A stretch of DNA of 64,000 nucleotides from contig JANQNG010000002.1 in NCBI GenBank assembly GCA_028279685.1, positions 11,922 through 75,921 on the forward strand, given 5' to 3'. The position numbers and the translations under genes are program-made. This DNA comes from Candidatus Nanoarchaeia archaeon. Lineage in GTDB: Archaea; Nanobdellota; Nanobdellia; Woesearchaeales; SKIA01. This document shows positions 34,312-59,989 of the stretch, piece by piece (within the stretch, counting starts at the first letter, position 1; every line of letters starts with the position of its first letter). The notes beneath the pieces are model-generated. The model was given only the letters and a program-made list of their open reading frames with translations, had not been told where the DNA came from and searched no databases.

Positions 34312-34767
34312 TCAGTTGAAATGATGCTCATCCGTCATGAATTGTTCATGATGGATGGTGTCTATGAGGTTGAAGACATGCTTCTCCGTGATTGAGTTGC
34401 TGTCTTCAAGATCGTCAATGAAGTCTTGCGCTTCTTTCTGATTCTTGAATATGCAATCAACATGAAAATCATGTCCTGTATTGATATGATGTATAGTGTT
34501 GACATTACTGCTTGCTTTGAAATATTCAAGCAGCGATTCTCTTTTTTCCGACGGTGTTTTCAAAGTGATAAACATCCTAATAGGAAACCCCAAACGTTCA
34601 TACGCAGGCACGGTGACATGCCTGAGCAACTTGCTCTCTTCCATTTTATGGAGGAGATCAGCCATCGACGACACAGGAAGATCGTTTTCCTTTGCAATCG
34701 CGTTAACTCTTGCTCTGCCATTCTTCCTGAGACCTATAATCAACCTTTTCTCTTTCTTGGTAAGCAT
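34312..34767 (-). CDS. lrp: Lrp/AsnC-family transcriptional regulator
   Basis: N-terminal HTH (KRLIIGLRKNGRARVNAIAKENDLPVSSMADLLHKMEE) plus a C-terminal RAM domain; 151 aa. Confidence 0.85.
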   Translation of the reverse strand: MLTKKEKRLIIGLRKNGRARVNAIAKENDLPVSSMADLLHKMEESKLLRHVTVPAYERLGFPIRMFITLKTPSEKRESLLEYFKASSNVNTIHHINTGHDFHVDCIFKNQKEAQDFIDDLEDSNSITEKHVFNLIDTIHHEQFMTDEHHFN

Positions 34768-34886: not shown

Positions 34887-35363
34887 TCATACTCTCGACG
34901 TGAGATCCATCAACACTATATCGGTCATGAATGCCTCACGTTTTATGTCTTCAACAATATAATGTATTCTACTATCTTCAATAACGAATTTATCATTAAG
35001 TTGTTCTATGAACCCTTCTGCATCTTTGATATGGTGAAATACTCCTTCAACCATGAAATCAAATCCGTTATTGATCCTGAATACTGAATTAATTGATTGA
35101 TGTTTAACCAGATGATTCATCAAAGCCTCTTTATCTTCTCTCGCCACTTTCAAATTCAATGTCGCTCTTGTATGAAATCCAAGTTTACTGAAATCAATCA
35201 ACGTTGTATGTTTCCTGATGATATTATTCTCATGAAACTTCAATCGGTCAAATATGGTTGATACCGGTATTGAGGTTTTTTTGCTAAGTTTAGTTAATGA
35301 CATCCTTGCATTGTTCCTCAATTGTGATATGATCCTTAGGTCATTTTTGTTCATGATTCTCAC
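34887..35363 (-). CDS. lrp: Lrp/AsnC-family transcriptional regulator
   Basis: HTH_AsnC plus RAM domain. It is a clear paralog of 61847..62329, sharing ...IPVSTIFDR...FSKLGFH...INNG(F/Y)DF(M/L)VEGVF.... Confidence 0.85.
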   Translation of the reverse strand: MRIMNKNDLRIISQLRNNARMSLTKLSKKTSIPVSTIFDRLKFHENNIIRKHTTLIDFSKLGFHTRATLNLKVAREDKEALMNHLVKHQSINSVFRINNGFDFMVEGVFHHIKDAEGFIEQLNDKFVIEDSRIHYIVEDIKREAFMTDIVLMDLTSRV

Positions 35364-35516: not shown

Positions 35517-36455
35517 ATGAAACGAAAAATCAATAGAGTAGGACAAAACACACTTACAGTGAGTCTACCCAGCAAATGGGCTAAAGAGAAGGAATTACAG
35601 CAAGGAGACGAAATTGAGCTCACAGAGCTTCCAGAAGGCCTTCTACTTCAACAAGAGGGAAAAAGCAGAGAATCTAAGCGTATTTCTATTAATATAGACC
35701 ACTTTGCGTATTATTCACTATCTCGCTATCTTACTGTGTTATATAGGGCTGGCTATGATAAAATAACGCTTATTCATAATAAGCATGAGACGTTTAATGA
35801 TAAGAAAGGAAAATACCTAAAAACACAGGATGTTATTAAGAAATTAGTCAATAGATTTGTTGGTTCTGAAATTATTTCACAAACAAGTTCAAAAACTGAG
35901 ATAGAATGTCTTGTTACAGAGAAACAACAAGATCTGAATAAAATCCAGAAAAGGATCTACTTTCTTATTAAAGAGACTTTTAGCGAGATTCTTAATGCAG
36001 TTAATGAAGATTATGCTACCTTTCACGATTCTATTTATAGTCATCATGATCATATTGCAAAATTCATTAATTATTATTTGCGAGAACTTATTGCTTCTGA
36101 TACACCTGCTGCAGAGAAGCATATGAGTTATTCACTCTATATGATTATTGATAAGCTTATTGATAAAATAAGACATATTAGTGAGAAAATTCATGAATAC
36201 GGCTGTAGTAAGAAAATACATAATCATCTTGGACAGATCTTTGAAATAATAAGCGATCAGTTCTTAAGTTTATATAAACAAGAATATACAAGAGATCTTG
36301 TGAAGAAACGATATAATCTTGTGAAGAAAATTGAGAAAGAGAAATACACACCGTCAGAGCTCCAAGTTATCTCAGAAGCGAAGATATTCTTGGATACGAT
36401 CAATGACTTCACAGAATTGATTGTCTGTCAGAATTTGAAAAAGATGGAAGAGTGA
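35517..36455 (+). CDS. AbrB/SpoVT-type swapped-hairpin DNA-binding domain fused to a PhoU-like helical domain (tentative)
   Basis: N-terminal RVGQNTLTVSLPSKWAKEKELQQGDEIEL is AbrB/MazE-like. The remaining ~250 aa are helical repeats, as in archaeal PhoU-like regulators. Confidence 0.45.
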   Translation: MKRKINRVGQNTLTVSLPSKWAKEKELQQGDEIELTELPEGLLLQQEGKSRESKRISINIDHFAYYSLSRYLTVLYRAGYDKITLIHNKHETFNDKKGKYLKTQDVIKKLVNRFVGSEIISQTSSKTEIECLVTEKQQDLNKIQKRIYFLIKETFSEILNAVNEDYATFHDSIYSHHDHIAKFINYYLRELIASDTPAAEKHMSYSLYMIIDKLIDKIRHISEKIHEYGCSKKIHNHLGQIFEIISDQFLSLYKQEYTRDLVKKRYNLVKKIEKEKYTPSELQVISEAKIFLDTINDFTELIVCQNLKKMEE

Positions 36456-36456
36456 A

Positions 36457-38574
36457 TTAATCAAGTTTTTCGAAATTTGATTCCATATACTCTTCTACTA
36501 AACACTTTTCAAACATTCTATACATTTTTTTATAATGATGATTTTTTGCAATTAGACAAGATTTAATTAAATCTCTGAGGTTATTATCTTTTATATTATC
36601 ATCGACTTTCTGCAGATACGGCTTTAAACGTTCGCCTGTAGTATCAGCGTAGACTTCATCACGTTCATCCTTAATATTATGCGCATGAATAGACAATTCC
36701 ATACTAGGAGATTCAGCAAAAATATGCTCATCAGTAGCCATCTTATACATCACTTGACCTAACGAAACAAGATCATTAGGCATCTGGCCTTTACCACCAT
36801 ATCTCCTATTATACCCCTTCTGCAACGCATACTTATCAGTCGTCGCAGTACCAAAATCAATAATCACAGCTCTATCTTTCTGCTCATCAACCATAATATT
36901 TGCAGGCCTAATATCTCTGTGAAACCAAATACTTGCCTGACGCATCTCGAAAAGACCGTTCATAATATCAGAAGCATAACGCAATACATCCTCTGAAGAT
37001 AATTCTTTCTTTTTTATTGTACTTTCTAAAGTATCTCCTTTAATATATTCAATTTTTACTCCAATATCTTCCTTGTGATCTAAATAACTAGTTTTGCTAA
37101 ATCCATCATCACTAATTACATCGCCAGGTTCTCCCAGAACTTTAATAATATTTTTTTGTTTTCCTTCAAACCTTTTATTAATCATATCTAAAAACTTATA
37201 CTCTTTCTGTATTTCCTTAGAGAACTTCCAAGCATCATTTTCAGCTCTAAGCACTATGCCATTAGCTCCCGTTCCAATACAACCAAGATTTTCAACTTTG
37301 CTCGTAACATCCCTATAGTTGTATAATGAATCTAGGAGCTTAAGTAGATTATGATGATTTTTAATTTTATTAGGATCAATTCCAAGTCTTGCAATTACAG
37401 GTATCTGGTAACTCTTAACTTCCCCAGGGTAAGAATCTGCAACCTCTGGAGAAACATCAAACATAAAAAATTTAGCAATAGTAAATCCATCAAATCTTTC
37501 AGGATAAAAGTTAGCTCTTTCTGGATCTACTCCTGCAAAAAACAACCTTTTTATCATCCATGCTGAGAATCTTTTGCCGCAAACAGCAACATATGGATTA
37601 GCATCATCAGGATGGACAAACCCCATAGATTCTCCACGATCCCAAGTATTTGCTAGTACTGAAGCTTCTTCCCAATCAAAAGAAGCATCATATTTATTCG
37701 CAATCTCATGAGAAACACCATACAATATAAACTCTCGAATTGAAACCCCACCATACCTTTCATCATATTTATCAGCTTCTTCAGGCGACACATTACCGTC
37801 AATCAGATATCCAATTTCGTAAGCATTAAACCTTTTGTTGTACGTAAGCACTTTTTCAATTGTAACATTTTCCTTTCTCTCAAAATCAACATTTTTAAAA
37901 AAAAGTGTTTCTATATCATCTTTGTTAAATCGTTCTGTTATCTCTATTGATTGTTCAGGAAGAATATCTACAAAGAGTTGCATACCTAATTGATAATCAC
38001 TAAGGCTATTAGGATATAACGATGCTCTCTCAGCATCAACATCTAATTTTTTCAACTTAGCAATATGTACTCCTCTAAATCTTTTATCATAACATATCGC
38101 TTCTTCATTTAGAACATTACCTCTATGAAGAATTGCAATATCCCATCCTGTAAATCTATTATCATAACTTTCTGCAATAATATGATCGATTCCTTCATTT
38201 ACCATATACTCAATTTCAGATCCACAAAATCTTGAATTAAATGTGATTGCCTTTTCATTTAGGACATTTGCTTTTATTAACTGAACAATATCATAACCAT
38301 TAAATCTTTTATCATATACTTCTGCTTGTTCAGGTGTTATTTCATTCTCATAAAGATTAGCAATATCCCAACCACTAAACCAAGAAGGATATTTATTTAC
38401 CACCTCTGGAAGTAAAGTCTTAAAATAAAGAAAATGACTAAGATCTTCCTCTCCAAATCTAGCATCATATGTATTTGCAACTTCAGGAGAAACTCCATGT
38501 TTAGCTAATTTCTCCTTATATTTGCCAAAGCGATCATCATATTCCTCAAGCGCAAACTCATCAATACTCATCAA
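36457..38574 (-). CDS. Ser/Thr protein kinase (Hanks-type catalytic domain) with ~12 N-terminal ~35-aa Y-x-x-R-F-x-G repeats
   Basis: Catalytic loop HRDIRPANIMV and IIDFGTATTD (DFG) in the C-terminal third. The N-terminus carries repeated YDARFGEEDL / YDKRFNGYDI / YDNRFTGWDI / YDKRFRGVHI / YNKRFNAYEI / YDERYGGVSI / CGKRFSAWMI / YPERFDGFTI units. Confidence 0.7.
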   Translation of the reverse strand: MMSIDEFALEEYDDRFGKYKEKLAKHGVSPEVANTYDARFGEEDLSHFLYFKTLLPEVVNKYPSWFSGWDIANLYENEITPEQAEVYDKRFNGYDIVQLIKANVLNEKAITFNSRFCGSEIEYMVNEGIDHIIAESYDNRFTGWDIAILHRGNVLNEEAICYDKRFRGVHIAKLKKLDVDAERASLYPNSLSDYQLGMQLFVDILPEQSIEITERFNKDDIETLFFKNVDFERKENVTIEKVLTYNKRFNAYEIGYLIDGNVSPEEADKYDERYGGVSIREFILYGVSHEIANKYDASFDWEEASVLANTWDRGESMGFVHPDDANPYVAVCGKRFSAWMIKRLFFAGVDPERANFYPERFDGFTIAKFFMFDVSPEVADSYPGEVKSYQIPVIARLGIDPNKIKNHHNLLKLLDSLYNYRDVTSKVENLGCIGTGANGIVLRAENDAWKFSKEIQKEYKFLDMINKRFEGKQKNIIKVLGEPGDVISDDGFSKTSYLDHKEDIGVKIEYIKGDTLESTIKKKELSSEDVLRYASDIMNGLFEMRQASIWFHRDIRPANIMVDEQKDRAVIIDFGTATTDKYALQKGYNRRYGGKGQMPNDLVSLGQVMYKMATDEHIFAESPSMELSIHAHNIKDERDEVYADTTGERLKPYLQKVDDNIKDNNLRDLIKSCLIAKNHHYKKMYRMFEKCLVEEYMESNFEKLD

Positions 38575-38700
38575 CCATACCTCTCACAGCCTCTAAAAAT
38601 AGGAATTGAAGCTAGTTTATATCTCTGCTTTTCTATCGCTTTCTATGTTTATAAAATTTACTACTTTTTAGTAGTTTCTTAATTATTTTCCATATAGAAT

Positions 38701-39501
38701 TTATAATATGTTTTTCACATCGTAAATAGATGGTACGCGAATAACATTCTCCTGTTCTGGATATTCATCTGTAGAAATATGAATTACGTTCATACCAAGA
38801 GAGGTTGCAGGGACAACATCGCTATGATATAAGTCACCAACATAGACAATCTCTGAAGGATGTGCTCCAGTGATTTCAAGAATTTTTTCAAATGGTTCTA
38901 ATGATGGTTTTTTATCTTTAACAACTTCTGAACAAATAACAAGAAATGGTGTGTCTGTTTTCATATGAAATGCAGAAAGCGGTATTGCAAGTGCATTGGT
39001 TACTTTTTCAACGGTAGAAAATACTTCTGATGTCATAATACCTAATTGATATTTATCGTCGAGATATTCTACTAAACCACACAACTCTTTATCTTCTGCA
39101 AGTATTGATGCAAAATCAGTATTACCCACAAGTCTTGCTACAAATCCAGCATCAGTATCAAAAATATTAGTGAATAATTTTCCATTCGAATGATATTGTT
39201 CAAGAAGATTATCATAATGCATTTTCATTTCTTCAGGAAATGATGCAATCGCTTCTAGTAAAGTATTATTTTGAATATGTTCTTTGTATTCTTGTATTAC
39301 TTCATTAGCTAATGCTTCAGGATCAGGAATACCTTCTTCTCTTGCTTTTGAGAAAGCAGAATATCTAAAGAACTCATGAGAATTCTGCACCGTACCTCTA
39401 CCAGGAATGTATTCTCTCTTCTTCCCATACAATGTACCATCAACATCAAAAATAACATATTTGATATTTTTCCAATTCATATGCACACCAATGTTCTCCA
39501 T
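38701..39501 (-). CDS. HAD-superfamily hydrolase/phosphatase
   Basis: Motif I FDVDGTLY, a distal VYVGD motif and a cap domain. It is embedded between kinase genes. Confidence 0.7.
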   Translation of the reverse strand: MENIGVHMNWKNIKYVIFDVDGTLYGKKREYIPGRGTVQNSHEFFRYSAFSKAREEGIPDPEALANEVIQEYKEHIQNNTLLEAIASFPEEMKMHYDNLLEQYHSNGKLFTNIFDTDAGFVARLVGNTDFASILAEDKELCGLVEYLDDKYQLGIMTSEVFSTVEKVTNALAIPLSAFHMKTDTPFLVICSEVVKDKKPSLEPFEKILEITGAHPSEIVYVGDLYHSDVVPATSLGMNVIHISTDEYPEQENVIRVPSIYDVKNIL

Positions 39502-39543
39502 TTTATAAAGTTTTCCATTTTTATTCCTGATTGGTAGTAATAA

Positions 39544-42183
39544 TTACGAAGGAACTATCGCTAAATCAATCTGACTATACTCCAACGTATCTCTATCTAT
39601 CAAGTATCTCTTCCCCACATCTGAGACAATAACGCCTTGCTCTGTAGGAACAATATCAAATCGAGGATAAGCTACAACACTCTTTTCTCTTTGTGCAAAC
39701 AGCCTTCTTCTAAATCTATCAGTCAGTATACCTTTATCTATAAAATCAAGAAACATTACCTCAATCTCTTCCCTCTTTTCAGAATATTTTTCTTTCGAAA
39801 TTCCAAGCATATGAAGCAATAAATACCAATTACGATTAAGAATCACATGATACTTTTTTACACACTCATTCATATCAAACCCAGAATCATACATAAGTTT
39901 CATTTCCCATCCATCAACATGCACATCATATTTTCCAACATAAGAATCAGGAATATCTTCTTGGATAAAGAAATGAATCTCTTCAGGAGAATATCTTAAC
40001 TTCTCTTTGAGAATCGTATTCTTGAAAATATATTTTTCTGCTTTTTCAAGAGGAACATTGTTATTCATAAAATAGGCAAGCGCATACAAATCAAAATCAG
40101 GGTGTTTCTTTTCAAGTATTTCTGATGGAAGTTGCTCATTGATGACTTGCCCTATTTTTTTCTTATCACTATCTTCTAAATACTTAACAATCCACTCATC
40201 CTCTCCACAATCATCATCCTTTAGCAAATATTCTATGCGTCCTTCATATTCAGGATGTCTTTTGGCTATAATATTATCAGATCCTACCGCTTTACTAACA
40301 ATCTCCTCAACATTCTCAGGAATGTAGTCAGCATATTCGAGCAATTCATACCATTCAAACATACGTTTCACTTCACGAATTTTCTCAATAGAAGGTTGCT
40401 TCCAAAGATCGTCATAAATCATATACAAGATTATTTTCTTCAAAGATTTTTGTTTTCCAGGAAAACTTATTCTGTCCTTAACAAAAGAAGCTGACCAAAA
40501 CATATTATCTCTTTCATATCGACTTTCTCCAAAAGGAGCATCCATGATTTTTTTAATATATTCTTCTGAAAGACGACCTAATGAATATGCCTTTTCTCTT
40601 TCTTCCCGAACATCATCTTTATAATCATCAGTACTATCAAATTCCTCGCTGAACAAATTATGAGTTGTCGCTAATTTGTAAAGAATTAATCCTAAGGAAA
40701 GAAGATCATTATTACCACCATACGCACGATTCAATGGATGAATCTCTTCAGGATTAGTTGTAGCTGCTCCTAAATCAATCAAAGTAGCGTTCATTGTTTT
40801 TTTATCATACATAATATTAAGAGGATGAAGATCTCTATAATAGAGCCCTCCTTCTCTAAGTTCTTCAAATCCAAGAATCACTCCTAACCCTACATTTAAT
40901 ATGTCTTCCTCTTGTAAAGGTTCAGGAGAAATATATTCTGTTCTCCAATTCCAGCCTAATTCAGGAGTTAATGTTTCAATGAGAGGTCTCCCTTCTACAT
41001 GCTTAAGAACTAACATACCTTTCTCTTTATCATATCGCTTACATTGAACAACATGCTTCGCATTCGGAATTCTTTGATAAAAACTGAATTCTTCATCAAG
41101 ATCATCACCAAATTTGTACGCTTCTTTGTTGAAAGGATCAATTAGCACATATGTTCCAGAACCAGGATGAGTAATATCGAGTAATGTATCAAGATCCTCT
41201 CCTTTTATCGCTCTTCTAAGTTCTTTCCGTATCACACTTTTTAACCTTGTAAAAAAATACTTAGAAGGACTTATTCCTCTTTGAGACAGCATTGGAAATA
41301 TTTCCAATTGATTAGCAATTCTGCCAAAGTACGTTTTATGAGAAGGAAGTTCATTATCGCAGTCCAGTTTATTCCAGATATCTATCACCTCTTGGATTTG
41401 CTGAGCATTCATAAATGCAGAAAGTCTTAGTGTAGAACGGAAACGATCAAAATGTATTTTTCTATCAAACTCATGATCATATGGATCATGAGGATCTCTC
41501 TGCCAATCCACATGACAAACGCTAAAAAATGATTCATTCTTTTCAAGAAGTTTATTGAATCTTTTAATTGCCTGTTGATTATAATCAGTCATCAATACAT
41601 TCATTCTCCCAAGGATACGTTCAACAACAGTTAATACATCCATATGCTCAGTTTTGTATGCAACATCGATAGCCTGTTGAAGAATATTTTTTATTTCAGG
41701 GACAGCCATAAGACCCATCCAATGTTCATGAATCTCACCCATATGATCAAATTGTTCAAGAACCTCTTTATAGTACGTACTTGTTTGTTCCTCAGCAAAT
41801 GCTTTTCTTTCTTCTTCTGTTTCTAGATCATACATCTTGACTATATCAAAAGAAATAAATTCTGTATCGGAATAATGATGAAAATGATATGCCATTTTAT
41901 GACCTATTCTATCAATAAGAAGAGGTTCATCATGATATAACTCAAGTATTTGTATGTATTGATCTTGAAGTTTAACATTATTTGGATATCGATCAAACCA
42001 TCTCATCCAATCAACAGCCCATTCAAATAATTGTTCCTTATATCTATCTTCATAGTAATCTTTCATCTCTTCGAAAAGAACCGTTAAAGCAGAGGTAAAA
42101 CGTTCTTTTTTTGTTTCTTCTAGAACTAATTTCTCAAGAGGTGCAATATCTTTAACATGCAATGAAATTTTTTCAATACTCAT
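39544..42183 (-). CDS. large protein with a central atypical protein-kinase-like domain
   Basis: YYRDLHPLNIMY (HRD-loop variant) and IDLGAATT (DFG variant), followed by NRAYGGNNDL, which is shared with the 42180..43979 kinase; 879 aa. Confidence 0.55.
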   Translation of the reverse strand: MSIEKISLHVKDIAPLEKLVLEETKKERFTSALTVLFEEMKDYYEDRYKEQLFEWAVDWMRWFDRYPNNVKLQDQYIQILELYHDEPLLIDRIGHKMAYHFHHYSDTEFISFDIVKMYDLETEEERKAFAEEQTSTYYKEVLEQFDHMGEIHEHWMGLMAVPEIKNILQQAIDVAYKTEHMDVLTVVERILGRMNVLMTDYNQQAIKRFNKLLEKNESFFSVCHVDWQRDPHDPYDHEFDRKIHFDRFRSTLRLSAFMNAQQIQEVIDIWNKLDCDNELPSHKTYFGRIANQLEIFPMLSQRGISPSKYFFTRLKSVIRKELRRAIKGEDLDTLLDITHPGSGTYVLIDPFNKEAYKFGDDLDEEFSFYQRIPNAKHVVQCKRYDKEKGMLVLKHVEGRPLIETLTPELGWNWRTEYISPEPLQEEDILNVGLGVILGFEELREGGLYYRDLHPLNIMYDKKTMNATLIDLGAATTNPEEIHPLNRAYGGNNDLLSLGLILYKLATTHNLFSEEFDSTDDYKDDVREEREKAYSLGRLSEEYIKKIMDAPFGESRYERDNMFWSASFVKDRISFPGKQKSLKKIILYMIYDDLWKQPSIEKIREVKRMFEWYELLEYADYIPENVEEIVSKAVGSDNIIAKRHPEYEGRIEYLLKDDDCGEDEWIVKYLEDSDKKKIGQVINEQLPSEILEKKHPDFDLYALAYFMNNNVPLEKAEKYIFKNTILKEKLRYSPEEIHFFIQEDIPDSYVGKYDVHVDGWEMKLMYDSGFDMNECVKKYHVILNRNWYLLLHMLGISKEKYSEKREEIEVMFLDFIDKGILTDRFRRRLFAQREKSVVAYPRFDIVPTEQGVIVSDVGKRYLIDRDTLEYSQIDLAIVPS

Positions 42184-43979
42184 GATTTATACCTCTCGAA
42201 CATCGCTTTTGCTTCAATAACATCTTCTAACTCAGGTTGCACCCACAAATCACCATCCAACAAATCAACAATAATATCGGCCAACACAGAATCAGCAACA
42301 TCCTCACGAATTTTACACAAATACTCCTGCAACAACTCAGGATCATCATACACTTCCTCTCTCTTAGTTTTAACACCTTTCTTCACAACACTATAACAGG
42401 TGAATCCAGGGCCTTCATTAAACAAATTACGACCAGTAGCCATCTTATACATCAACTGACCAACACTAATTAAATCATTATTACCACCATAAGAACGATT
42501 CAAAGAATGAATCTCAGAAGAATCAGTAGTCGCAACACCCAAATCAATTACAACAGCACGATCTTTTTTCTCATCTATGAGTATATTCCTATCGTGTATG
42601 TCTCTATGATAAATTCCTACTTCTCTTAACTCAATAATCCCATTAATAACATCTTTAGTGTAGGAAAATGTTTTCTCTATTAGGAAAGGCTTTCTGCTCA
42701 AAAGCTTCTTCTCTAATGTTTCTCCAAAAATGCGCTCTATCTTTATTGCTAGATTATGCTCCTGTATCGATCTTTTAGCATAATCTGGTTTGTCCAACAG
42801 CCTAACAACATTTGATTTTTCCTTTTGTTTCTTTCGAAGCAACTCTAATAATTCATATTCATGATCAATACCATATGAGAATTTCCAACTAATATCTTCT
42901 TCATTAAAAATAAATGATTCTCCTCCTGAAGCAAATAAACTTAATGTCTTGTAAAGTGTATTAAAAAAAACTTTCGATTCAACTATATCTTCAAGTAAAT
43001 AAGATAAACCTTGGCTTTTATATTCTTTATACCCATCATAATTTATACCTAAATGCCGAAGCATTCTAAGCTGCATTAACCCCAAAGTATTCCTTTCGCT
43101 GTAAAATCCATTCGCTTCTTCAGGAGTATATCTTTCTGAGAAAAAATATTCAAACTTTTCAAAATCATTTAACATTTCATACTTTTGAACATATTCTGGA
43201 GAAATATTTTCATTTATAATTTTCAATATTGTATTCGAAGTAATAGTATTTTTTTTAGAGCGAAATCTTATATCAGTTTCAAACATAAATTTTCTTATAT
43301 TTTTTACCGATTGAACATTATTATCTTTTCTAATATCAAAATCTTTTCTTCGTCTTTTTAGTAATGAAAGAGCAGCATTATGCATTTCCTTACTAGTAAG
43401 AGGCTTCCTATTCTGATAAATAGAAGGGTTTTGATTAAGATGAACTTTTATTATTTCATCTGCTTTTTCAGCAGAAACATTATTTTCTATCAACTCAAAT
43501 ACACTATGCGGAGTTATTCGAGAATCATAAATATTAACTTCCCGAGCTTTGACACCATTAAGAACACAATTTAGTATCTGATACGCATCAAACCTTTTAC
43601 TATACTGATTTATGTGACTCGGAAACTTTCCAAGCTTTCTTAAGAGAATTAATATATCTGATCGTCTATTAACAACATCATTAGCACGTCCAAAGATTTC
43701 TTGTTTCATTTGCAGCATTTCATAAGCAATTCCCCCAGCATGATCCTCTCTATGAGCTAACTTTTCAAGTAAACTTTCAAGGCCTACTCGTTTTCCCCTA
43801 AATCTTTTCCCATACGCATTTGCGGTAGAAGGAGGTATTTTATTCTTATAGAGAAAGACAATATCTTCTCCTTCAAATTTATGATGATATTCATTAAAAG
43901 CAACAGGAGGTATGTTGAATTCTTTCATTATTTCTTCATTTGACATAAGCATTAATCTTATTGATTCATCACTATTCAT
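42180..43979 (-). CDS. protein kinase with N-terminal Y-x-x-R-F repeats (paralog of 36457..38574)
   Basis: IYHRDIHDRNILI, VIDLGVATTD and NRSYGGNNDL. N-terminal YGKRFRGKRV / YSKRFDAYQI repeats. The stop overlaps the downstream start. Confidence 0.65.
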   Translation of the reverse strand: MNSDESIRLMLMSNEEIMKEFNIPPVAFNEYHHKFEGEDIVFLYKNKIPPSTANAYGKRFRGKRVGLESLLEKLAHREDHAGGIAYEMLQMKQEIFGRANDVVNRRSDILILLRKLGKFPSHINQYSKRFDAYQILNCVLNGVKAREVNIYDSRITPHSVFELIENNVSAEKADEIIKVHLNQNPSIYQNRKPLTSKEMHNAALSLLKRRRKDFDIRKDNNVQSVKNIRKFMFETDIRFRSKKNTITSNTILKIINENISPEYVQKYEMLNDFEKFEYFFSERYTPEEANGFYSERNTLGLMQLRMLRHLGINYDGYKEYKSQGLSYLLEDIVESKVFFNTLYKTLSLFASGGESFIFNEEDISWKFSYGIDHEYELLELLRKKQKEKSNVVRLLDKPDYAKRSIQEHNLAIKIERIFGETLEKKLLSRKPFLIEKTFSYTKDVINGIIELREVGIYHRDIHDRNILIDEKKDRAVVIDLGVATTDSSEIHSLNRSYGGNNDLISVGQLMYKMATGRNLFNEGPGFTCYSVVKKGVKTKREEVYDDPELLQEYLCKIREDVADSVLADIIVDLLDGDLWVQPELEDVIEAKAMFERYKS

Positions 43980-43991
43980 TCAACATACCCC

Positions 43992-46694
43992 TCAATCATT
44001 ATTTTTGAACGGACCGCTCATATCAAATATCTTCCCCCTGCAACTATTGTTAGTTTCATCAGATTCTCTATAATTATTATCAGAATCTACTATAAAACAA
44101 AAAGACAATAAAGCATTGCCATGCTTTTCATAATATTGTTTAACTTTATCAAATGGAACATACGGTCCTAGATACATTTGATCTTTATTTCCAGGTTCTA
44201 AGGAAATCTTACTATCCAACATTAAATCTATTTCAGGAATCCCAAATTTTATCGGAATATTTTCTAAATAATATGGACTATCATTGTAAAAATTAGCTCT
44301 AACTTGATACATAAAATGCTCTTCTCCAGATCTACTAGGACTAAAAGTCTCATAACTGTATGGATCTGCCCTTAAATCAATAGGTTCATCAGAAACATTT
44401 AATCCACCTACACACACCTCACTTTTCCTACCATCACTTACAGAAAAAACAACATGATAATAACCATTATGCTGAGAATTTGGGGTAAATGTAAACTTCT
44501 TCCCTTGACTAATCACTCTCGTACTATCTGTTAATAAAGTGACATTCGAACCTAAGGAAATATGCTCTTCAAAAACATCTTCTCCTTCTTCTTTCTCTTG
44601 AAGAACAACCCATTTATAATACAACGAATCACCATCCAGATCTTCGACATTAGCTGCAAAATTTATTGGAACTCCTATTGGAACATCAGGATAAGGATCT
44701 CCTTTAAAGAAACGTTCAGGAAATACAGTAATAATACTTGGAGAATAATTACCTTTAACTAAAACATTCCATTCTTGAGTCGATTCAAATACACCATCAT
44801 TTACCACACACTTTACTCTGTGGTTACCAGGATCAATAACCTGAAAATCTAGTTTTACCCTGTCTTTATCATTTGAAAGAGGAACATTATCAAGAAACCA
44901 AGAAAATGAAACATCATCTCTTGATATAAGATCAACCAGAGAAAAATATGCTTCGTCACCTTTTCCAAATTTATGTTTAAGCCTATATGGTCTAAGCTCA
45001 TCTTTTACATCTACCTTAAATTCAACAGGTTTATCTTTCTCTGAAGTCTCAAAAAACCTTTTTTCAGGTTTATATGCATCAATACGAGGAGCTCTATTTT
45101 CATATGATATAAAAATTATTTTCGTATAAATATCTGCTAATCTATCTGAAACAGTTCTTGTCGAAGAAGTATCAGTTTCCATCTGTGCATTTCGTATAAA
45201 ATAAACAATCTCATCATTTTCCTGTCTTTTCTTAAAATCAAATGAGAATCCATATACATAATGACTGCTTTTATCTCTTCTAAGAAACTCAGCCTCTTGC
45301 TTCTTCTTAAGAACACCATTCAATATCCAATAACACGTAGCTCCTTCAAGATTAGCAGAAGTAATTAAAATTTCAGGAAGATCATCTGCCAAACAATACA
45401 TTGGCTGTTCAAATGTTTTTACTGCTTTATTTCGCTCATTTCTTAAAGCCAAATTAGTCGTATCGCTTTGATCATCCCAAATCCATTTAACATAAGAAGT
45501 GTCAGCTCCTCCTTCTATTATAAAATTTTCACCACCATCATTAAAATAAGATTCAAAAGTAGGATATTTATTTCTAAACTCTAGAGCATCTTCAATCCAA
45601 CCTCGTTCATTAGCACGCCATTTTTCATATTCTTTAATTATTCTATTTCCTTCAAATCTTCTCCAAGAAGCATCTCCTGTCAAAAACAAGCCATACAATG
45701 CTGCTGAGCCCAGAAGTATATAAGCAGGAATCTTAATTTTATTCCAAACAGCTTTTCCTATCTTTCCAAAGTTTATTTTTTTTAACTTTCTTCGAAAGCG
45801 ACGTACTTTTCCAAAATCTCTTCCCAACTCACCAACACTTTGAAATCGCTCATCAGGGTCGTAGCGAAGACATTTTCTTAATATTCTTTGAATTCTTTTA
45901 TTTTTTATTCCTTCAAGCTTTCTCTCTAAACTATCATAACTCTTAGGATTATTCAAAACATCTTTCATTTCAGATTTCTTCTCGCATTGGAAAGGGCGTT
46001 CTCTCAGGCAAAGTTCATACAACAACACTCCTAACGACCAAACCTCTGAACGCGCATCAAATTTACCATCAAGCGTTTCAGGTGCTTGATATTCTCTATC
46101 ACCAGAATAGTCTCCTGTAATATCATCACCCATAGCAATACCATAATCAACAACCTTCACCAAACCAGATTTTTCAAGCATAATATTCTCTGGTTTAATA
46201 TCCCTATGAAAGAATCCAGCATGATGAATAGCAGCTACTCCTTTAGTAGTTTGCGAAAATATTGAAACAATCTCACCAAGAGATAATTCCTTCTTTCGCT
46301 CTTGCAAAGAAAGAAGTGTCTCTCCACGAATAATATCAAACAATAAACCATCTACCTTTCTTTCCCTTTCTATCCCATCATTCTCTTCAACAATAGTAAT
46401 ATCATTAATATTTGCTCTATAATTTGCAAGATTAGGATGTTTCAGCATTGAAAGCACATAACCTGTTCTTGATTCAACTTGAGAAAGATCTATTCCTTCT
46501 TTTCTCCTAACTCCTTCAAGCATACGATACGCATTTGAACTATCTCTCAAAGGATTTCCTGGAATAATTTTTAGAGCAAAGATATTATCTTTATTCTTAT
46601 CATCCTGAACTTCAAAGTAATTTCCCGTAGCACCTTCTCCTAATCTCTCAATAACATTATATCCAGGTGCTTCCACGGAAATAATTCTAATCAT
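43992..46694 (-). CDS. transmembrane receptor-like Ser/Thr protein kinase with a large extracytoplasmic beta-rich (Ig/PKD-like) domain
   Basis: N-terminal canonical kinase: GEGATGNYF (Gly loop), ALKII (VAIK Lys), HRDIKPENIML, VVDYG (DFG) and APETL (APE). A single TM helix lies at ~aa 323-341, followed by an ~550-aa extracellular region. Confidence 0.85.
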   Translation of the reverse strand: MIRIISVEAPGYNVIERLGEGATGNYFEVQDDKNKDNIFALKIIPGNPLRDSSNAYRMLEGVRRKEGIDLSQVESRTGYVLSMLKHPNLANYRANINDITIVEENDGIERERKVDGLLFDIIRGETLLSLQERKKELSLGEIVSIFSQTTKGVAAIHHAGFFHRDIKPENIMLEKSGLVKVVDYGIAMGDDITGDYSGDREYQAPETLDGKFDARSEVWSLGVLLYELCLRERPFQCEKKSEMKDVLNNPKSYDSLERKLEGIKNKRIQRILRKCLRYDPDERFQSVGELGRDFGKVRRFRRKLKKINFGKIGKAVWNKIKIPAYILLGSAALYGLFLTGDASWRRFEGNRIIKEYEKWRANERGWIEDALEFRNKYPTFESYFNDGGENFIIEGGADTSYVKWIWDDQSDTTNLALRNERNKAVKTFEQPMYCLADDLPEILITSANLEGATCYWILNGVLKKKQEAEFLRRDKSSHYVYGFSFDFKKRQENDEIVYFIRNAQMETDTSSTRTVSDRLADIYTKIIFISYENRAPRIDAYKPEKRFFETSEKDKPVEFKVDVKDELRPYRLKHKFGKGDEAYFSLVDLISRDDVSFSWFLDNVPLSNDKDRVKLDFQVIDPGNHRVKCVVNDGVFESTQEWNVLVKGNYSPSIITVFPERFFKGDPYPDVPIGVPINFAANVEDLDGDSLYYKWVVLQEKEEGEDVFEEHISLGSNVTLLTDSTRVISQGKKFTFTPNSQHNGYYHVVFSVSDGRKSEVCVGGLNVSDEPIDLRADPYSYETFSPSRSGEEHFMYQVRANFYNDSPYYLENIPIKFGIPEIDLMLDSKISLEPGNKDQMYLGPYVPFDKVKQYYEKHGNALLSFCFIVDSDNNYRESDETNNSCRGKIFDMSGPFKNND

Positions 46695-46790
46695 ACCACT
46701 ATACCGGAATTCAAATCCTTATAAATAGCTTACGAATATACTAACTGTAAAGTAGTATTCTTAATTATTTTCCATATGGAAATTTGTTCT

Positions 46791-47225
46791 TCAAATCACA
46801 AACCCTTCTCGCTTGATTTCATCGAGAATGAAGATCTCGTTGAGACTCGTAATATTAAACTGCTGCAAGGCATCTTTAAAGCCACCCATCTCTTTCATAT
46901 CCTTAAAAATACATTCAGCATAGAAATCATATCCATCCACCAGCGAAGACAACGTATTCACATGCAGACATTCCGAAAGATACTTCTTCAACTGTTCTTT
47001 CTTTTCTGCTTTAATAGCAAAATTGACCTTCACTGAAAAACCAATCTTCTCATAATCTAGCAACGAAACATGCTTTACAATCACATCACCTTCAAGTGCT
47101 TTCATCCTGTTGAATAATGTTGAGACAGGAACATCTATTTCTTTTGAAATCTGCGCGAGACTCTTCCTTGAATCATCACGTAAATGTTTCAATAATGCTT
47201 TTTCGCTCGACGTTATAACAACCAT
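46791..47225 (-). CDS. lrp: Lrp/AsnC-family transcriptional regulator
   Basis: HTH (EKALLKHLRDDSRKSLAQISKEIDVPVSTLFNRMKALE) plus a RAM domain; 144 aa. Confidence 0.8.
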   Translation of the reverse strand: MVVITSSEKALLKHLRDDSRKSLAQISKEIDVPVSTLFNRMKALEGDVIVKHVSLLDYEKIGFSVKVNFAIKAEKKEQLKKYLSECLHVNTLSSLVDGYDFYAECIFKDMKEMGGFKDALQQFNITSLNEIFILDEIKREGFVI

Positions 47226-48493: not shown

Positions 48494-49374
48494 AATGTAT
48501 TCACTTGAAGATATTGTTTATGTTCTATAAGCTCAGGAGGCATCCTGATACGCTCTTTCTTGTATGGTGTAAAATTAGAAGGATCTCCACTCTTTGTTCT
48601 TCTCTTCTTATAGACTTTGTTGAATTTGCTATTGAACTCAAAGATATCATCATAATATTCTTCATCGCCTGCAACTTTTTTTGCAATAGCTCTGAGCGAC
48701 TCCTTACCAGTTGCCTCATAATATTCTCGAGGAATATAATCTTCAAGCGATTTCTTTTCTCCCGAAGTAAAACTATATTGCACAACCTCTGACTTGTTTT
48801 TCACTATGTCGGAAGGGATCCTTAGTATCTGCGCTTTCTCAATCACATTAGATTTCAGTTTATTGTGATCATAGATTCTTTTCCAAAGACTTCCATCTCC
48901 TGATATTTTCTTTGCAATCATAACAAGATATTCATCAGGCTGCACAACATAGAGATGTTCTTTCCTTGCTGTGTTGATAGGAATTGCAGGTGCTATCTCT
49001 TTTGGAGAAGGCTTCTTTGTCGTTTGCATGGGAACAGTATTTTGTTTCTCTTCTTTTTTTCTCAATAAAGTATACTCTCCCTTAAGACGCTTATGCTCAT
49101 CCTTGATGCTGTCTTTCTCAGCCTTCAAACGATCATACTTTGCCTGAACTTCCTTTGCACGTTGTTTCTCAATTTGATATTCCGTCAGATAAGTCCTTGT
49201 AGTCTGTACAACTTCTTTCTCATCAAATTTATTATTGATCCATATTCCTCCTGTGACTCCTCCTGCAATCAGCAAAGCAGTCATAACTACTCTTCCAAAA
49301 CGCCTCTTTTTCTGTCTAGAACCCATCCTATTTCCAGGACTTTCATGAGGTTTATTATCTGCGAAGAATCTCAT
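48490..49374 (-). CDS. membrane-anchored LysM-domain protein with a coiled-coil
   Basis: TM helix VMTALLIAGGVTGGIWI, a coiled-coil, and LysM-like YVVQPDEYLVMIAKKISGDGSLWKRIYDHNKL...ILRIP. Confidence 0.55.
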   Translation of the reverse strand: MRFFADNKPHESPGNRMGSRQKKRRFGRVVMTALLIAGGVTGGIWINNKFDEKEVVQTTRTYLTEYQIEKQRAKEVQAKYDRLKAEKDSIKDEHKRLKGEYTLLRKKEEKQNTVPMQTTKKPSPKEIAPAIPINTARKEHLYVVQPDEYLVMIAKKISGDGSLWKRIYDHNKLKSNVIEKAQILRIPSDIVKNKSEVVQYSFTSGEKKSLEDYIPREYYEATGKESLRAIAKKVAGDEEYYDDIFEFNSKFNKVYKKRRTKSGDPSNFTPYKKERIRMPPELIEHKQYLQVNTL

Positions 49375-50627: not shown

Positions 50628-51334
50628 TCTTTGATTTGTAATTCAACTATGCCATTAATCTTATGTAGTGCATTAAGTCCATCTTTCTTGATATCGATAT
50701 TATGTGCATTGAATACTTCATCAACCATTGTTATTCTTTCTTTTACACTATCACATAATCCGTTCACATCACTATAAGCGGGATGAATACGAAGAAGATA
50801 GTCACACAACACCACCATGTGATGCTCTTCAGCAGAGATCTTTTCTAAGTACTTATCAAATGAAAGCTGAACATATTTGTGAATAACATTCTCTGCCATC
50901 TCCTGTTCAATTGATTTCATAGGCTGCCTTCCGCCACGCTGTACTCTTCTGATAAAATTATTGAGCTTCTTTGAGCATGATTGAGCAACATAAGCTGCCC
51001 AATAAGAGGGAGATATGTGTTGTTCCAGAAAATCATAGAGCTGCTTATCTCCATACTCCTGAGCATAGACATCAGACATGAGTAATACTGCTGTGTTCTT
51101 TGAAAAATCAATTTTATCTACATCCAAATGCTTAAGATAATATTTTGATAATAGATGTTCCTCTAATGTAAGCCCCTCTTCTGAGCACTTCTTCGTTGGT
51201 TCAGCTATAATGCCTTGTTCGAAAGATATCTTTCTTTGATAAACACCTCTAGGAATTCTTTTTCCTTTACCCTGTACTTTAATATTATGAGATCTTGCTT
51301 TCAGTAGCTGTCTTACATCAACCATAGCTTTCAC
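50624..51334 (-). CDS. hypothetical protein
   Basis: 236 aa ORF; overlaps both neighbours. Confidence 0.5.
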   Translation of the reverse strand: MKAMVDVRQLLKARSHNIKVQGKGKRIPRGVYQRKISFEQGIIAEPTKKCSEEGLTLEEHLLSKYYLKHLDVDKIDFSKNTAVLLMSDVYAQEYGDKQLYDFLEQHISPSYWAAYVAQSCSKKLNNFIRRVQRGGRQPMKSIEQEMAENVIHKYVQLSFDKYLEKISAEEHHMVVLCDYLLRIHPAYSDVNGLCDSVKERITMVDEVFNAHNIDIKKDGLNALHKINGIVELQIKE

Positions 51335-56695: not shown

Positions 56696-56704
56696 ATAAC
56701 ATGC

Positions 56705-57184: not shown

Positions 57185-57228
57185 AAGTTATACTATACTA
57201 ATATCGTAATCATTCATAAGTCTTTACC

Positions 57229-57264
57229 AAAAAAAACCGCAAAATTTCCGTCGAGAAACGGAAG
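57229..57264 (-). terminator. hairpin CTTCCG-N8-CGGAAA followed by T8 on the minus strand, directly after the ATP-grasp stop codon
   Basis: Plus strand reads A8-CCG-CAAAAT-TTCCG-TCGAGAAA-CGGAAG; the TAA stop of 57267..58211 abuts it. Confidence 0.45.
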
Positions 57265-57266
57265 AA

Positions 57267-58852: not shown

Positions 58853-58861
58853 ATATTCTCC

Positions 58862-59923: not shown

Positions 59924-59989
59924 AGCAACCACCTTTTATTTAAATTAAACATAATATCAACGATCAAAACTATTTTATATGTCTTCGCT

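What the first reader, a model, noticed from the sequence alone, without database searches (positions are those of the whole stretch)
36457..46694. Cluster of four Hanks-type protein kinase genes plus a HAD phosphatase-like gene
Four consecutive minus-strand genes encode Ser/Thr-kinase catalytic domains (HRDIRPANI, YRDLHPLNI, HRDIHDRNI, HRDIKPENI; DFG/DLG/DYG). 43992..46694 is a textbook receptor-type kinase: Gly loop, VAIK Lys, HRD, DFG and APE, then a TM helix and a ~550-aa extracellular beta-rich domain. The other three form a divergent subfamily that shares NRxYGGNNDL after the DFG and lacks APE. A HAD hydrolase (38701..39501) sits inside the cluster and is a candidate cognate phosphatase. 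The cluster is flanked by Lrp regulators. Such a dense eukaryotic-like kinase signalling locus is unusual for a small archaeal genome.
Basis: partly seen in the sequence, partly recalled or inferred. Interest (0 to 1): 0.75.

Follow-up and report, generated by a model that had tools for sequence, protein, structure and literature searches.

The report
DPANN kinase array with HAD phosphatase
A small Woesearchaeota-type archaeon carries four protein-kinase genes in a row, three from an undescribed family with a new 25-residue helical repeat, and related genomes keep this array beside a phosphatase and two gene regulators, which points to a lineage-specific signalling circuit.

Summary
Four consecutive minus-strand genes all pass Pfam's Pkinase threshold, with a HAD hydrolase between them.

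- **K4** is a canonical receptor-type Hanks kinase: PknB-like domain, one transmembrane helix and an orphan ectodomain.
- **K1-K3** are ancient paralogs (25-38% identical) of an undescribed family of about 250 sequence clusters, found only in Woesearchaeota/Nanoarchaeota assemblies.
  - Catalytic Lys, Glu, HRD-Asp, Asn and DxG-Asp are 93-96% conserved, so these are not pseudokinases.
  - The activation segment is shortened, lacks APE and carries the signature NRxYGG-x-NDLxSLG.
- **The cluster is not a one-off.** Tandem arrays recur in most related loci.
- A convergent AbrB-type regulator abuts the array in 13 loci.
  - An Lrp gene is usually transcribed divergently from the AbrB-type gene.
  - HAD-superfamily phosphatases sit in or beside the array in 8 loci.
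  - One relative fuses an inositol-monophosphatase domain, 27 repeats and the kinase in one protein.

The most likely reading is a conserved kinase/phosphatase/transcription-factor signalling module. Whether the capped HAD dephosphorylates proteins is unproven. I rate it a new variant of a known kind, of moderate-to-high interest.

The parts
43992..46694 (-). K4: canonical receptor-type Hanks Ser/Thr kinase. Kinase domain aa 12-284 (DNA 45843-46661), TM helix about aa 322-341 (DNA 45672-45731), orphan ectodomain aa 342-900 with two weak Ig-like segments.
   Evidence: Pkinase 124.7 bits. Aligns to PknA/PknB through HRD, DxG and APE. One TM segment with a basic inside flank. Homologs cover only the kinase domain. 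Ig-like hits.
42180..43979 (-). K3: cytoplasmic kinase of the new family, sub-type 'HRDIHDRN / NRSYGGNNDL', with about 3 degenerate N-terminal 25-aa repeats. Its stop codon overlaps the K2 start (ATGA).
39544..42183 (-). K2: divergent member of the same family (YRDLHPLN, DLG, NRAYGGNNDL). The kinase domain lies mid-protein (aa about 361-613), with unique N- and C-terminal extensions. No repeat was detected by the HMM; there is only a weak BLAST match to K1 repeats.
38701..39501 (-). HAD-IA hydrolase with all four catalytic motifs (DVDGT at 19-23, T157, K197/K198, GD..D at 222-228) and a conserved insertion of about 130 aa between motifs I and II (C1-type cap).
   Evidence: Orthologs (39-45% identity) sit in the kinase arrays of L005, L010 and L013.
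36457..38574 (-). K1: cytoplasmic kinase of the new family, sub-type 'HRDIRPAN / NRRYGG'. The repeat solenoid spans aa 29-373 (DNA 37456-38490, 10 HMM-detected units) and the kinase domain spans aa about 425-700 (DNA 36475-37302).
35517..36455 (+). AbrB/MazE/SpoVT-type DNA-binding domain (aa 10-45) plus a helical C-terminal domain of about 250 aa with unknown function. It is convergent with K1, and the two stop codons are 1 nt apart. This is the gene most consistently linked to the kinase arrays.
   Evidence: PF04014 25.0 bits, matched by 7 of 7 orthologs. Orthologs at 39-47% identity. Convergent position in the window, 11 genome loci and 1 metagenome contig. Sequence.
34887..35363 (-). Lrp/AsnC-family regulator, transcribed divergently from the AbrB-type gene. 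The same arrangement recurs in 6 other loci.
34312..34767 (-). Second Lrp/AsnC-family gene, directly downstream of the first.
46791..47225 (-). Lrp/AsnC-family regulator immediately upstream of K4.
46735..46781 (-). Intergenic element, copy 1: palindrome TTCCATATGGAA, a 20-nt exact repeat and a short hairpin. It lies just upstream of a TATA-like box (ctatttataagg, about 27 nt before the K4 ATG).
38655..38699 (-). Intergenic element, copy 2 (TTCTATATGGAA, the same 20-mer and a hairpin). It lies upstream of a TATA-like ttttataaa and the K1 start.

Best explanation
The region is the kinase arm of a signalling module conserved in Woesearchaeota/Nanoarchaeota (DPANN) archaea.

Shown:
- K4 is a canonical membrane receptor Hanks kinase with a cytoplasmic kinase domain and an orphan extracellular domain.
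- K1, K2 and K3 are soluble, catalytically intact members of a lineage-specific offshoot of the Hanks-type fold. Its activation segment is cut down to about 23 residues between DxG and the alpha-F Asp, with no APE or alpha-EF and the signature NRxYGG-x-NDLxSLG. Its catalytic-loop Lys is replaced by Arg, His or Trp.
- Most members carry an N-terminal solenoid of 25-residue two-helix repeats of a type not in Pfam or the PDB.
- The genes form a tight co-directional cluster: an ATGA overlap, 12-42 nt gaps, and internal GAG(A/G)GGT ribosome-binding boxes.
- Related genomes keep the same neighbourhood: kinase array, a HAD-superfamily phosphatase, a convergent AbrB-type regulator and a divergent Lrp.

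Inferred:
- K4 relays an envelope or external cue.
- The solenoid kinases use their variable repeat surfaces to bind cytoplasmic partners or ligands and phosphorylate proteins. The adjacent AbrB-type and Lrp regulators are the most likely targets or local controllers, by analogy with B. subtilis AbrB.
- The HAD supplies the phosphatase arm of the module.

My estimates for the HAD's role: about 35% that it directly erases the kinases' marks, about 45% that it acts on a small phospho-compound tied to the pathway, and the rest unknown.
For: Kinase identity and activity:
- Pkinase scores above threshold for all four.
- K1 aligns to p38 from the Gly loop to the DFG; K4 aligns to PknA/PknB.
- The K1 model (pLDDT 87.6) finds ERK2, ROCK and Stk1 by Foldseek.
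- Invariant G, K, RD, N and DxG in 7 sequences.
- Beta-3 Lys 93%, alpha-C Glu 93%, HRD 94-95%, Asn 94%, DxG Asp 96% in 161 family domains.

Family reality and range:
- 252 cluster representatives at E<=1e-30, against about 68 bits for the best ordinary kinase among the candidates scored in the word-index profile search.
- All 17 genome loci come from DPANN-labelled or similar MAGs.
- No family members on viral contigs.

Repeats:
- Exact 25-aa period; consensus from 514 units.
- Solenoid at pLDDT about 95-98.
- No Pfam hit even at E=10.

Conserved module:
- Tandem arrays in 12 of 17 loci.
- AbrB-type gene convergent in the window, 11 other genome loci and L033.
- Lrp divergent from it in 7 loci.
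- A HAD-type gene in or beside the array in W, L005, L010, L013, L014, L015, L019 and L033.
- The remaining flanks differ between loci, for example Lhr helicase versus RLI/ABCE1.
- P0008 is an IMPase + 27 repeats + family kinase fusion.

Operon signals.

Precedent: AbrB is phosphorylated by the Hanks kinases YabT, PrkC and PrkD, which inhibits DNA binding (PMC4837961). Finished Nanoarchaeota genomes lack two-component systems (PMC5847659).
Against: - No biochemical data exist for any member.
- Substrates are unknown. The peptide-binding P+1/APE region is missing, so protein substrates are an inference.
- The HAD has a large conserved C1-type cap and belongs to HAD-IA families (TIGR02253/CTE7, YjjG-like). 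It travels with inositol-monophosphatase fusions, and both types are canonically small-molecule enzymes.
- The usual partner of Hanks kinases is a PP2C. I found no such gene in the part of the window that was scanned, but the genome is not available.
- The AbrB-type gene is convergent rather than co-transcribed, so the link could be regulatory, or simply compaction.
- The K4 ectodomain does not recur in related arrays. Only L015 has a similar receptor architecture.
- The IMPase-kinase fusion is a single cluster representative.
- Several loci are short or come from the same MAG, so the locus counts are not fully independent.
Confidence: 0.55

Rival explanations
1. This is a metabolic kinase/phosphatase operon. 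K1-K3 are small-molecule kinases (for example acting on an inositol, sugar or nucleotide derivative) that evolved from the protein-kinase fold. The HAD and IMPase enzymes act on the same phospho-metabolites, and the AbrB and Lrp genes are ordinary local regulators.
For: - The activation segment is short and lacks the APE/alpha-EF peptide-binding platform.
- The catalytic-loop Lys is replaced.
- The partners are capped HAD-IA and IMPase enzymes, both canonical small-molecule phosphatases.
- An IMPase domain is fused to a family kinase. From my own knowledge, this recalls the IMPase-like NADP phosphatase/NAD kinase fusion MJ0917.
- L033 also carries a P-loop AAA_33/6PF2K-type kinase next to its HAD.
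Against: - The family keeps features specific to protein kinases that small-molecule kinases of this fold lack: GxG loop, HRD, the alpha-F 'DLxSLG' anchor and a G-H-I-like helical lobe.
- It passes Pkinase, not APH or choline-kinase, as best hit.
- Three to five diverged paralogs with long, variable protein-interaction-type solenoids are hard to explain for one metabolic step.
- Different HAD subfamilies are recruited in different loci.
Confidence: 0.12
2. This is a diversifying conflict system (antiviral defence, or host interaction in an ectosymbiont). Tandem kinase paralogs use variable solenoids as sensors of foreign proteins, and the MazE/AbrB-fold protein acts as an antitoxin-like partner.
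For: - Lineage-restricted, tandemly expanded paralogs with 1 to about 27 repeats and variable surface positions.
- Weak similarity to single-gene kinase defence models PD-T4-6 and mad6.
- The partner's N-terminus matches MazE_antitoxin and doc_partner models.
- An E1/ThiF-containing operon of unknown function lies 3 kb away.
Against: - The PADLOC hits cover only the generic kinase core, score lower for K1-K3 than for the ordinary K4, and no system partner genes are present.
- The locus sits among housekeeping genes with uniform composition.
- Gene order is conserved across species rather than variable as in defence islands.
- No relatives on viral contigs.
- A convergent 312-aa AbrB-type protein is not a toxin-antitoxin layout.
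Confidence: 0.12
3. The kinases form an ordinary signalling array, but the HAD is an unrelated passenger. Its adjacency reflects inherited gene order in related small genomes, not function.
For: - Window-type HAD orthologs were found next to kinases in only 3 other species, and one short contig (L021) shows no kinase within 2 kb upstream.
- From my own knowledge, capped HAD-IA enzymes are abundant housekeeping phosphatases.
Against: - The flanks outside the module differ between loci while the HAD stays.
- Start/stop overlaps with kinases, for example L010 5576/5579.
- Other HAD subfamilies and IMPase-HAD fusions occupy the same position in further loci, on either strand.
- An IMPase-kinase fusion protein exists.
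Confidence: 0.1
4. K1-K3 are pseudokinases or recent duplicates of a mobile-element cargo gene. These are the first reader's refutation scenarios.
For: - The Gly loops of K2 and K3 are degenerate; only the central Gly is kept.
- GC in the cluster is slightly lower (0.32-0.33) than the window mean of 0.35.
Against: - All catalytic residues are present and 93-96% conserved across the family.
- The paralogs are 25-38% identical and closer to orthologs elsewhere.
- No integrase, transposase or viral context.
Confidence: 0.03

Closest known systems
Bacterial receptor Hanks kinase / phosphatase operons (PknB-PstP, PrkC-PrpC, Stk1-Stp1)
   Same: K4 has the same layout: an N-terminal cytoplasmic PknB-like kinase domain, one TM helix and an extracellular sensor domain. 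A kinase and a phosphatase gene share one cluster. Best solved and NCBIfam matches are PknA/PknB and PASTA kinases.
   Different: There are no PASTA repeats, and the ectodomain is an orphan with two weak Ig-like segments. The phosphatase is a capped HAD, not a PP2C. Three additional soluble kinases of a different family are co-transcribed.
Archaeal ePK networks (Sulfolobus ArnC/ArnD/ArnS with PP2A/PTP and regulators ArnA/ArnB/ArnR; review PMC5007285)
   Same: Archaeal Hanks-type kinases that act on transcription regulators, in lineages without two-component systems.
   Different: The Sulfolobus kinases are canonical (with APE), are not arranged in tandem arrays, lack the 25-aa solenoid, and use PPP/PTP phosphatases.
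Hanks kinases fused to helical repeat sensors (TPR-, Sel1- and WD40-linked bacterial STKs, PknG)
   Same: A kinase domain joined to a long repeat array that presumably binds partners. TPR proteins even occur inside two related arrays (L004, L033).
Atypical kinases without an activation loop (RIO, Bud32)
   Same: A very short segment after DxG and no APE. There are weak Bud32 and RIO hits.
   Different: The family keeps HRD, the alpha-F DLxSLG anchor and a C-terminal helical lobe, and scores best with Pkinase. It is not a RIO or Bud32 ortholog.
B. subtilis AbrB regulated by the Hanks kinases YabT/PrkC/PrkD
   Same: An AbrB-fold DNA-binding regulator functionally tied to Hanks kinases. Phosphorylation inhibits DNA binding (PMC4837961).
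   Different: Here the regulator is 312 aa with an unknown C-terminal domain and is genomically linked (convergent). Phosphorylation is untested.
HPr kinase operon with the HAD pyrophosphatase PpaX; IMPase-like NADP phosphatase/NAD kinase fusion MJ0917 (both from my own knowledge, not checked here)
   Same: Precedents for a HAD or IMPase small-molecule phosphatase co-encoded or fused with a kinase. The window HAD gives a weak PpaX hit of 34 bits.
   Different: The kinase folds differ (P-loop HprK, NadK). The similarity is too weak to claim orthology.

Membership tests
Hanks-type / eukaryotic-like protein kinase (Pfam PF00069) | Profile match above the curated threshold | tested here: met
   K1 52.9, K2 42.3, K3 42.4 and K4 124.7 bits against a cutoff of 31.7.
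Hanks-type / eukaryotic-like protein kinase (Pfam PF00069) | Gly-rich loop GxGxxG (subdomain I) | tested here: inconclusive
   K1 GTGANG and K4 GEGATG are complete. K2 GSGTYV and K3 ASGGES keep only part of the loop. The central Gly is invariant in 7 sequences and 86% conserved across the family.
Hanks-type / eukaryotic-like protein kinase (Pfam PF00069) | Beta-3 Lys and alpha-C Glu (subdomains II and III) | tested here: met
   [AS]-[WYF]-K-F Lys is invariant in 7 sequences and 93% conserved across the family. Glu is 93% conserved. K4 has FALK.
Hanks-type / eukaryotic-like protein kinase (Pfam PF00069) | Catalytic loop HRDxxxxN and Mg-binding DxG (subdomains VIb and VII) | tested here: met
   All four genes have them. 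Asp, Asn and Asp are 94-96% conserved. The Lys at D+2 is kept only in K4; the family has Arg, His or Trp there.
Hanks-type / eukaryotic-like protein kinase (Pfam PF00069) | APE motif / alpha-EF / P+1 loop (subdomain VIII) | tested here: not met
   Met in K4 (QAPE). Absent in K1-K3 and the whole family, where NRxYGG replaces it and only 23 residues separate the DxG Asp from the alpha-F Asp.
Hanks-type / eukaryotic-like protein kinase (Pfam PF00069) | Alpha-F Asp motif DxWSxG (subdomain IX) and bilobal ePK fold | tested here: met
   The family has D-L-x-S-L-G with Asp 96% conserved. K4 has EVWSLG. The K1 model matches ERK2, ROCK and Stk1 at E about 1e-7.
Hanks-type / eukaryotic-like protein kinase (Pfam PF00069) | Protein Ser/Thr (or Tyr) phosphotransfer activity | not testable with these tools
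   Requires an in vitro assay.
PknB/PrkC-like PASTA receptor kinases | N-terminal kinase, single TM helix, extracellular PASTA repeats | tested here: not met
   The kinase and TM layout is met for K4. There is no PASTA domain. NF033483 scores 113 bits against a cutoff of 450, and the match covers the kinase domain only.
HAD-superfamily phosphatase | Four catalytic motifs (DxDxT, S/T, K, (G)DxxxD) | tested here: met
   DVDGT at 19-23, T157, K197/K198 and G222-D223...D228 are invariant in 4 orthologs. HAD_2 46.3 bits and Hydrolase 42.4 bits.
Cognate protein phosphatase of a Hanks kinase (PP2C/PPM type) | PP2C domain encoded with the kinase | tested here: not met
   No PP2C hit in the five cluster genes or in the neighbours scanned at 28-64 kb. 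The phosphatase present is a capped HAD-IA. Protein-phosphatase activity is untested.
AbrB/MazE/SpoVT DNA-binding regulators | Swapped-hairpin N-terminal domain (PF04014) | tested here: met
   25.0 bits against a cutoff of 24.7 for the window protein. All 7 orthologs match, with a best E of 2.4e-8. The C-terminal 250 aa have no match. A PhoU relationship was rejected.
Lrp/AsnC regulators | HTH_AsnC/HTH_24 plus AsnC_trans_reg ligand domain | tested here: met
   HTH_24 is above its cutoff for 34887-35363 and 46791-47225. The ligand domain is weak. NCBIfam Lrp models score 33-57 bits, below equivalog cutoffs.
Known anti-phage kinase systems (PADLOC: PD-T4-6, MADS mad6, BREX PglW) | Full-length match and the system's partner genes | tested here: not met
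   Only kinase-core matches were found (K1 at most 55 bits, K4 143 bits), and no partner genes.

The most novel reading that the evidence does not exclude
In Woesearchaeota-type DPANN archaea, HAD-superfamily and inositol-monophosphatase-family enzymes have been recruited as the dedicated erasers for a lineage-specific Hanks-derived kinase family. That family may have non-canonical specificity: its catalytic loop carries Arg at D+2 or D+4, as in tyrosine kinases (my own knowledge). Its new 25-residue solenoid reads cytoplasmic partners, and the adjacent AbrB-type/Lrp pair is its direct phosphorylation target. This would be a complete writer/eraser/output circuit of a composition not known in any organism.
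Probability: 0.2. Interest if true: 0.8.

Novelty: new variant of a known kind. Interest (0 to 1): 0.6.

Why it matters
DPANN archaea have tiny genomes, depend on hosts, and finished Nanoarchaeota genomes have no two-component systems (PMC5847659). How they sense and regulate is therefore largely unknown.

A conserved, multi-paralog kinase module with its own repeat type, a non-canonical phosphatase partner and linked transcription factors would be a leading candidate for their main signalling circuitry. It also adds three things to what is known:
- a new helical repeat family of about 25 residues;
- a naturally truncated activation-segment variant of the protein-kinase fold;
- a testable case in which HAD or IMPase enzymes might replace PP2C phosphatases.

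All components are small soluble proteins that can be expressed and assayed.

Tried and rejected
1. **Word-index homolog searches.** Searches with K3 and with the family profile found only 4-5 relatives and wrongly suggested an almost orphan family. The exhaustive profile search corrected this.
2. **PhoU idea for the AbrB-type protein's C-terminal domain.** No Pfam, NCBIfam or PDB hit, and hhalign against E. coli PhoU gave probability 3%. Rejected.
3. **Defence-system membership.** Only generic kinase-core hits in PADLOC.
4. **Viral or mobile origin.** No family member on IMG/VR contigs. The surroundings are housekeeping genes.
5. **Reverse test from the HAD in metagenomes.** Only two true orthologs were found. 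One is identical to L010 and one lies on a 2.8-kb contig, so this was uninformative.
6. **Strict pairing of kinase sub-types within arrays.** No rule was found.
7. **The 12-nt palindrome / 20-nt element.** Absent from related loci, so it is genome-specific.
8. **tRNA and Rfam scans of the window.** Nothing found.
9. **AFDB fold search.** The library was unavailable.
10. **Exact look-up of K3's contig and cluster names.** No record and no names.
11. **Literature searches for this family or DPANN kinases.** Nothing found.
Full report
**Observation.** The five ORFs lie exactly at the stated coordinates on the minus strand. All four kinase candidates exceed Pfam's Pkinase gathering score of 31.7 bits: K1 (36457-38574) 52.9, K2 (39544-42183) 42.3, K3 (42180-43979) 42.4 and K4 (43992-46694) 124.7. 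The gene at 38701-39501 matches HAD_2, Hydrolase and Hydrolase_like. Lrp/AsnC genes flank the cluster. K4 has one hydrophobic helix at about residues 320-341, preceded by a very basic stretch. K1-K3 and the HAD have none. There are minor corrections: K4 has DYG; K1 has a 4-residue insertion in the shared motif; K1 probably starts at the ATG at 38571; and the 'beta-rich' ectodomain rests on only two weak Ig-like hits.

**Organism and context.** The window encodes an archaeal RadA (443 bits, above the equivalog cutoff), NreA, ArgRS, AspRS, arginine deiminase and SecDF-like proteins. Composition is uniform at about 35% GC, and there are no tRNA or Rfam hits. This is ordinary chromosome, not a mobile element. 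Relatives of K1-K3 come from MAGs labelled Woesearchaeota, Nanoarchaeota or 'Nanobdellati'. Five TPA bins are titled Methanosarcinales, but they have the same gene neighbourhood.

**K4.** It aligns to PknA/PknB through HRD, DxG and APE. Its database relatives, mostly bacterial Hanks kinases, cover only the kinase domain (at most 39% of the query), so the 558-residue ectodomain is an orphan. K4 is a textbook receptor-type Hanks kinase without PASTA repeats.

**K1-K3 belong to an undescribed family.**
- They are only 25-38% identical to each other. Orthologous segments in other genomes reach 61-72% identity to K3, so the duplications are ancient.
- The word-index search found four relatives. An exhaustive profile search of 1.84 billion representatives found 252 with E<=1e-30, and the top 150 all score at least 252 bits. 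The best ordinary kinase among the candidates scored in the word-index profile search reaches about 68 bits.
- Across 161 family kinase domains the beta-3 Lys (93%), alpha-C Glu (93%), HRD (94-95%), catalytic Asn (94%) and DxG Asp (96%) are conserved. The family is therefore under selection for catalysis.
- What differs from canonical Hanks kinases is the segment after DxG. The consensus is DlG-x-AT-x(7-9)-NRrYGG-x-NDL-x-SLGQ-x-MYKMATG, with only 23 residues between the DxG Asp and the alpha-F Asp and no APE or alpha-EF.
- The Lys two residues after the catalytic Asp, kept in K4, is Arg (K1 type), His (K3/K2 type) or Trp in the family.
- An AlphaFold model of K1 (mean pLDDT 87.6) has a normal bilobal kinase fold that matches ERK2, ROCK and Stk1.

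**A new repeat.**
- N-terminal to the kinase domain, most members carry tandem units with an exact 25-residue period. K1 has 10 HMM-detectable units within residues 29-373, K3 about three degenerate ones, and K2 none by HMM. Relatives have from 1 to about 27.
- The consensus from 514 units is P-E-x-A-N-x-Y-D-x-R-F-x-G-x-D-I-x-x-L-x-K-x-G-[I/C].
- Each unit models as a 9-residue helix plus a 4-residue helix, stacked into a solenoid at pLDDT about 95-98.
- The repeat is portable: P0089 has 15 units with thioredoxin and peptidase-like domains and no kinase.
- No other ORF in the window carries the repeat.

**The cluster is one instance of a conserved module.** I annotated 17 genome loci, three metagenome contigs and the window with family-specific HMMs.
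- Same-strand tandem arrays of 2-5 family kinases occur in 12 of the 17 genome loci.
- The 312-residue gene at 35517-36455 (+), which has an AbrB/MazE/SpoVT N-terminal domain, has orthologs at 39-47% identity (28% in L033). These are always convergent with and abut the 3' end of the array. This holds in the window, 11 other genome loci and L033. In the window the two stop codons are 1 nt apart.
- An Lrp gene is transcribed divergently from the AbrB-type gene in 7 loci, including the window.
- Orthologs of the window HAD, with all four catalytic motifs and the cap conserved, lie in the arrays of L005, L010 and L013.
- A second HAD type, often fused to an inositol-monophosphatase domain, lies in or beside the arrays of L005, L010, L013, L014, L015 and L019. 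L033 has yet another HAD.
- Genes outside this set differ between loci, for example Lhr helicase versus RLI/ABCE1. The association is therefore specific rather than a frozen syntenic block.
- One family representative, P0008, fuses an IMPase domain with intact DPLDGT and WDYCAG motifs, 27 repeats and a family kinase domain in a single 1318-residue protein.
- Canonical Hanks kinases also join some arrays (L012 and L013). L015 has a K4-like kinase-TM-ectodomain protein. The K4 ectodomain itself does not recur.

**Operon signals in the window.** K3 and K2 overlap by ATGA. The K4-K3 gap is 12 nt and the K2-HAD gap is 42 nt. Internal genes are preceded by GAG(A/G)GGT boxes. K4 has a TATA-like box about 27 nt before its ATG. 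A 45-50-nt element precedes the TATA-like boxes of both K4 and K1. It consists of the palindrome TTCCATATGGAA, an exact 20-mer and a hairpin. It occurs nowhere else in the window (chance expectation 0.03-0.05) or in related loci. This suggests two co-regulated transcription units: K4-K3-K2-HAD, and K1.

**Interpretation.**
- Shown: four kinase-fold genes with intact catalytic residues; a receptor-type K4; a lineage-specific family with a truncated activation segment and a new solenoid repeat; and conserved linkage to HAD/IMPase phosphatases and to AbrB-type and Lrp regulators.
- Inferred: the kinases are protein kinases. The family keeps the protein-kinase-specific GxG loop, HRD, the alpha-F anchor and the C-lobe helices. 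The solenoids would bind partners, and the adjacent regulators would be targets or controllers. Hanks kinases phosphorylate B. subtilis AbrB and inhibit its DNA binding (PMC4837961). Finished Nanoarchaeota genomes lack two-component systems (PMC5847659).
- The HAD's role is the weakest link. Operon logic, the recruitment of different phosphatase subfamilies to the same position and the IMPase-kinase fusion all argue for a functional partnership. However, a capped HAD-IA enzyme (TIGR02253/YjjG-like; closest structure PH1655) and IMPases are canonically small-molecule phosphatases.
- I put about 35% on direct erasure of the kinases' marks and about 45% on a small-molecule role.

**Rivals.** I considered a metabolic small-molecule kinase/phosphatase operon, a diversifying defence or host-interaction system, a passenger HAD, and pseudokinases or mobile cargo. 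Each is weighed in its own section. The last is essentially excluded.

**Novelty.** No paper in the searchable library describes this family, the repeat or kinase arrays in DPANN archaea. The finding is best filed as a new variant of a known kind: Hanks-type kinase signalling with a new kinase subfamily, a new repeat and a non-canonical phosphatase partner. It is ordinary in principle, unusual in composition, and typical rather than exceptional within its lineage.

Noticed in passing
window 46735-46781 and 38655-38699 (minus strand): An exact 20-nt repeat, ATATGGAAAATAATTAAGAA, is embedded in a conserved stretch of about 50 nt. The stretch has the palindrome TTCCATATGGAA and a short hairpin. 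It occurs exactly twice in the window, each time just upstream of a TATA-like box, before K4 and before K1. It is absent from related loci. It is a candidate shared operator.
   Followed up: partly
window 49371-59932 (minus strand): A co-directional block of unannotatable genes contains a tandem ThiF/E1-like protein (52576-54057; ThiF 142 bits, weak PADLOC E1-E2 hits). It also has two paralogous proteins of about 440 aa (51318-52628 and 54027-55388) with an HSHG...S..D motif that looks JAMM-like by eye but has no family hit. A RimK-type ATP-grasp (57267-58211) and a transglutaminase-like protein (58193-58852) follow. This may be a ubiquitin-like conjugation or conflict system.
   Followed up: partly
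window 34312-34767, 34887-35363, 46791-47225, 61847-62329, 62570-63595: There are five Lrp/AsnC-type regulator genes in 64 kb. One has two HTH domains (62570-63595). This is a striking density for a small genome.
   Followed up: no
window 19267-20991: The aspartyl-tRNA synthetase is of the bacterial type (NF001750, 813 bits) in a genome that is otherwise archaeal (RadA, NreA). It is probably a horizontal acquisition.
   Followed up: no
P0008 (metagenome protein, 1318 aa) and P0089 (906 aa): P0008 fuses an inositol-monophosphatase domain, 27 of the 25-aa repeats and a family kinase domain. P0089 has 15 repeats together with thioredoxin and a weak peptidase-C13-like region, but no kinase.
   Followed up: partly
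L033 755-4364 and L004 7760-10528: Some related arrays also contain a TPR protein. In L033 there is also a small P-loop AAA_33/6PF2K-type kinase next to a HAD with faint polynucleotide-kinase-3'-phosphatase similarity.
   Followed up: no
L011, L012, L015, L017, L018: These loci come from TPA assemblies titled 'uncultured Methanosarcinales archaeon'. They nevertheless carry the same kinase/AbrB/Lrp module as the Woesearchaeota MAGs, so the labels may be wrong or the bins mixed.
   Followed up: no
L001 6127-7998: The 623-aa gene directly upstream of the family kinase P0002 has no Pfam hit. Its C-terminus (…NNWVVNDNRITAIDLEDKG…) looks like an APH/Kdo-type kinase catalytic loop by eye.
   Followed up: no
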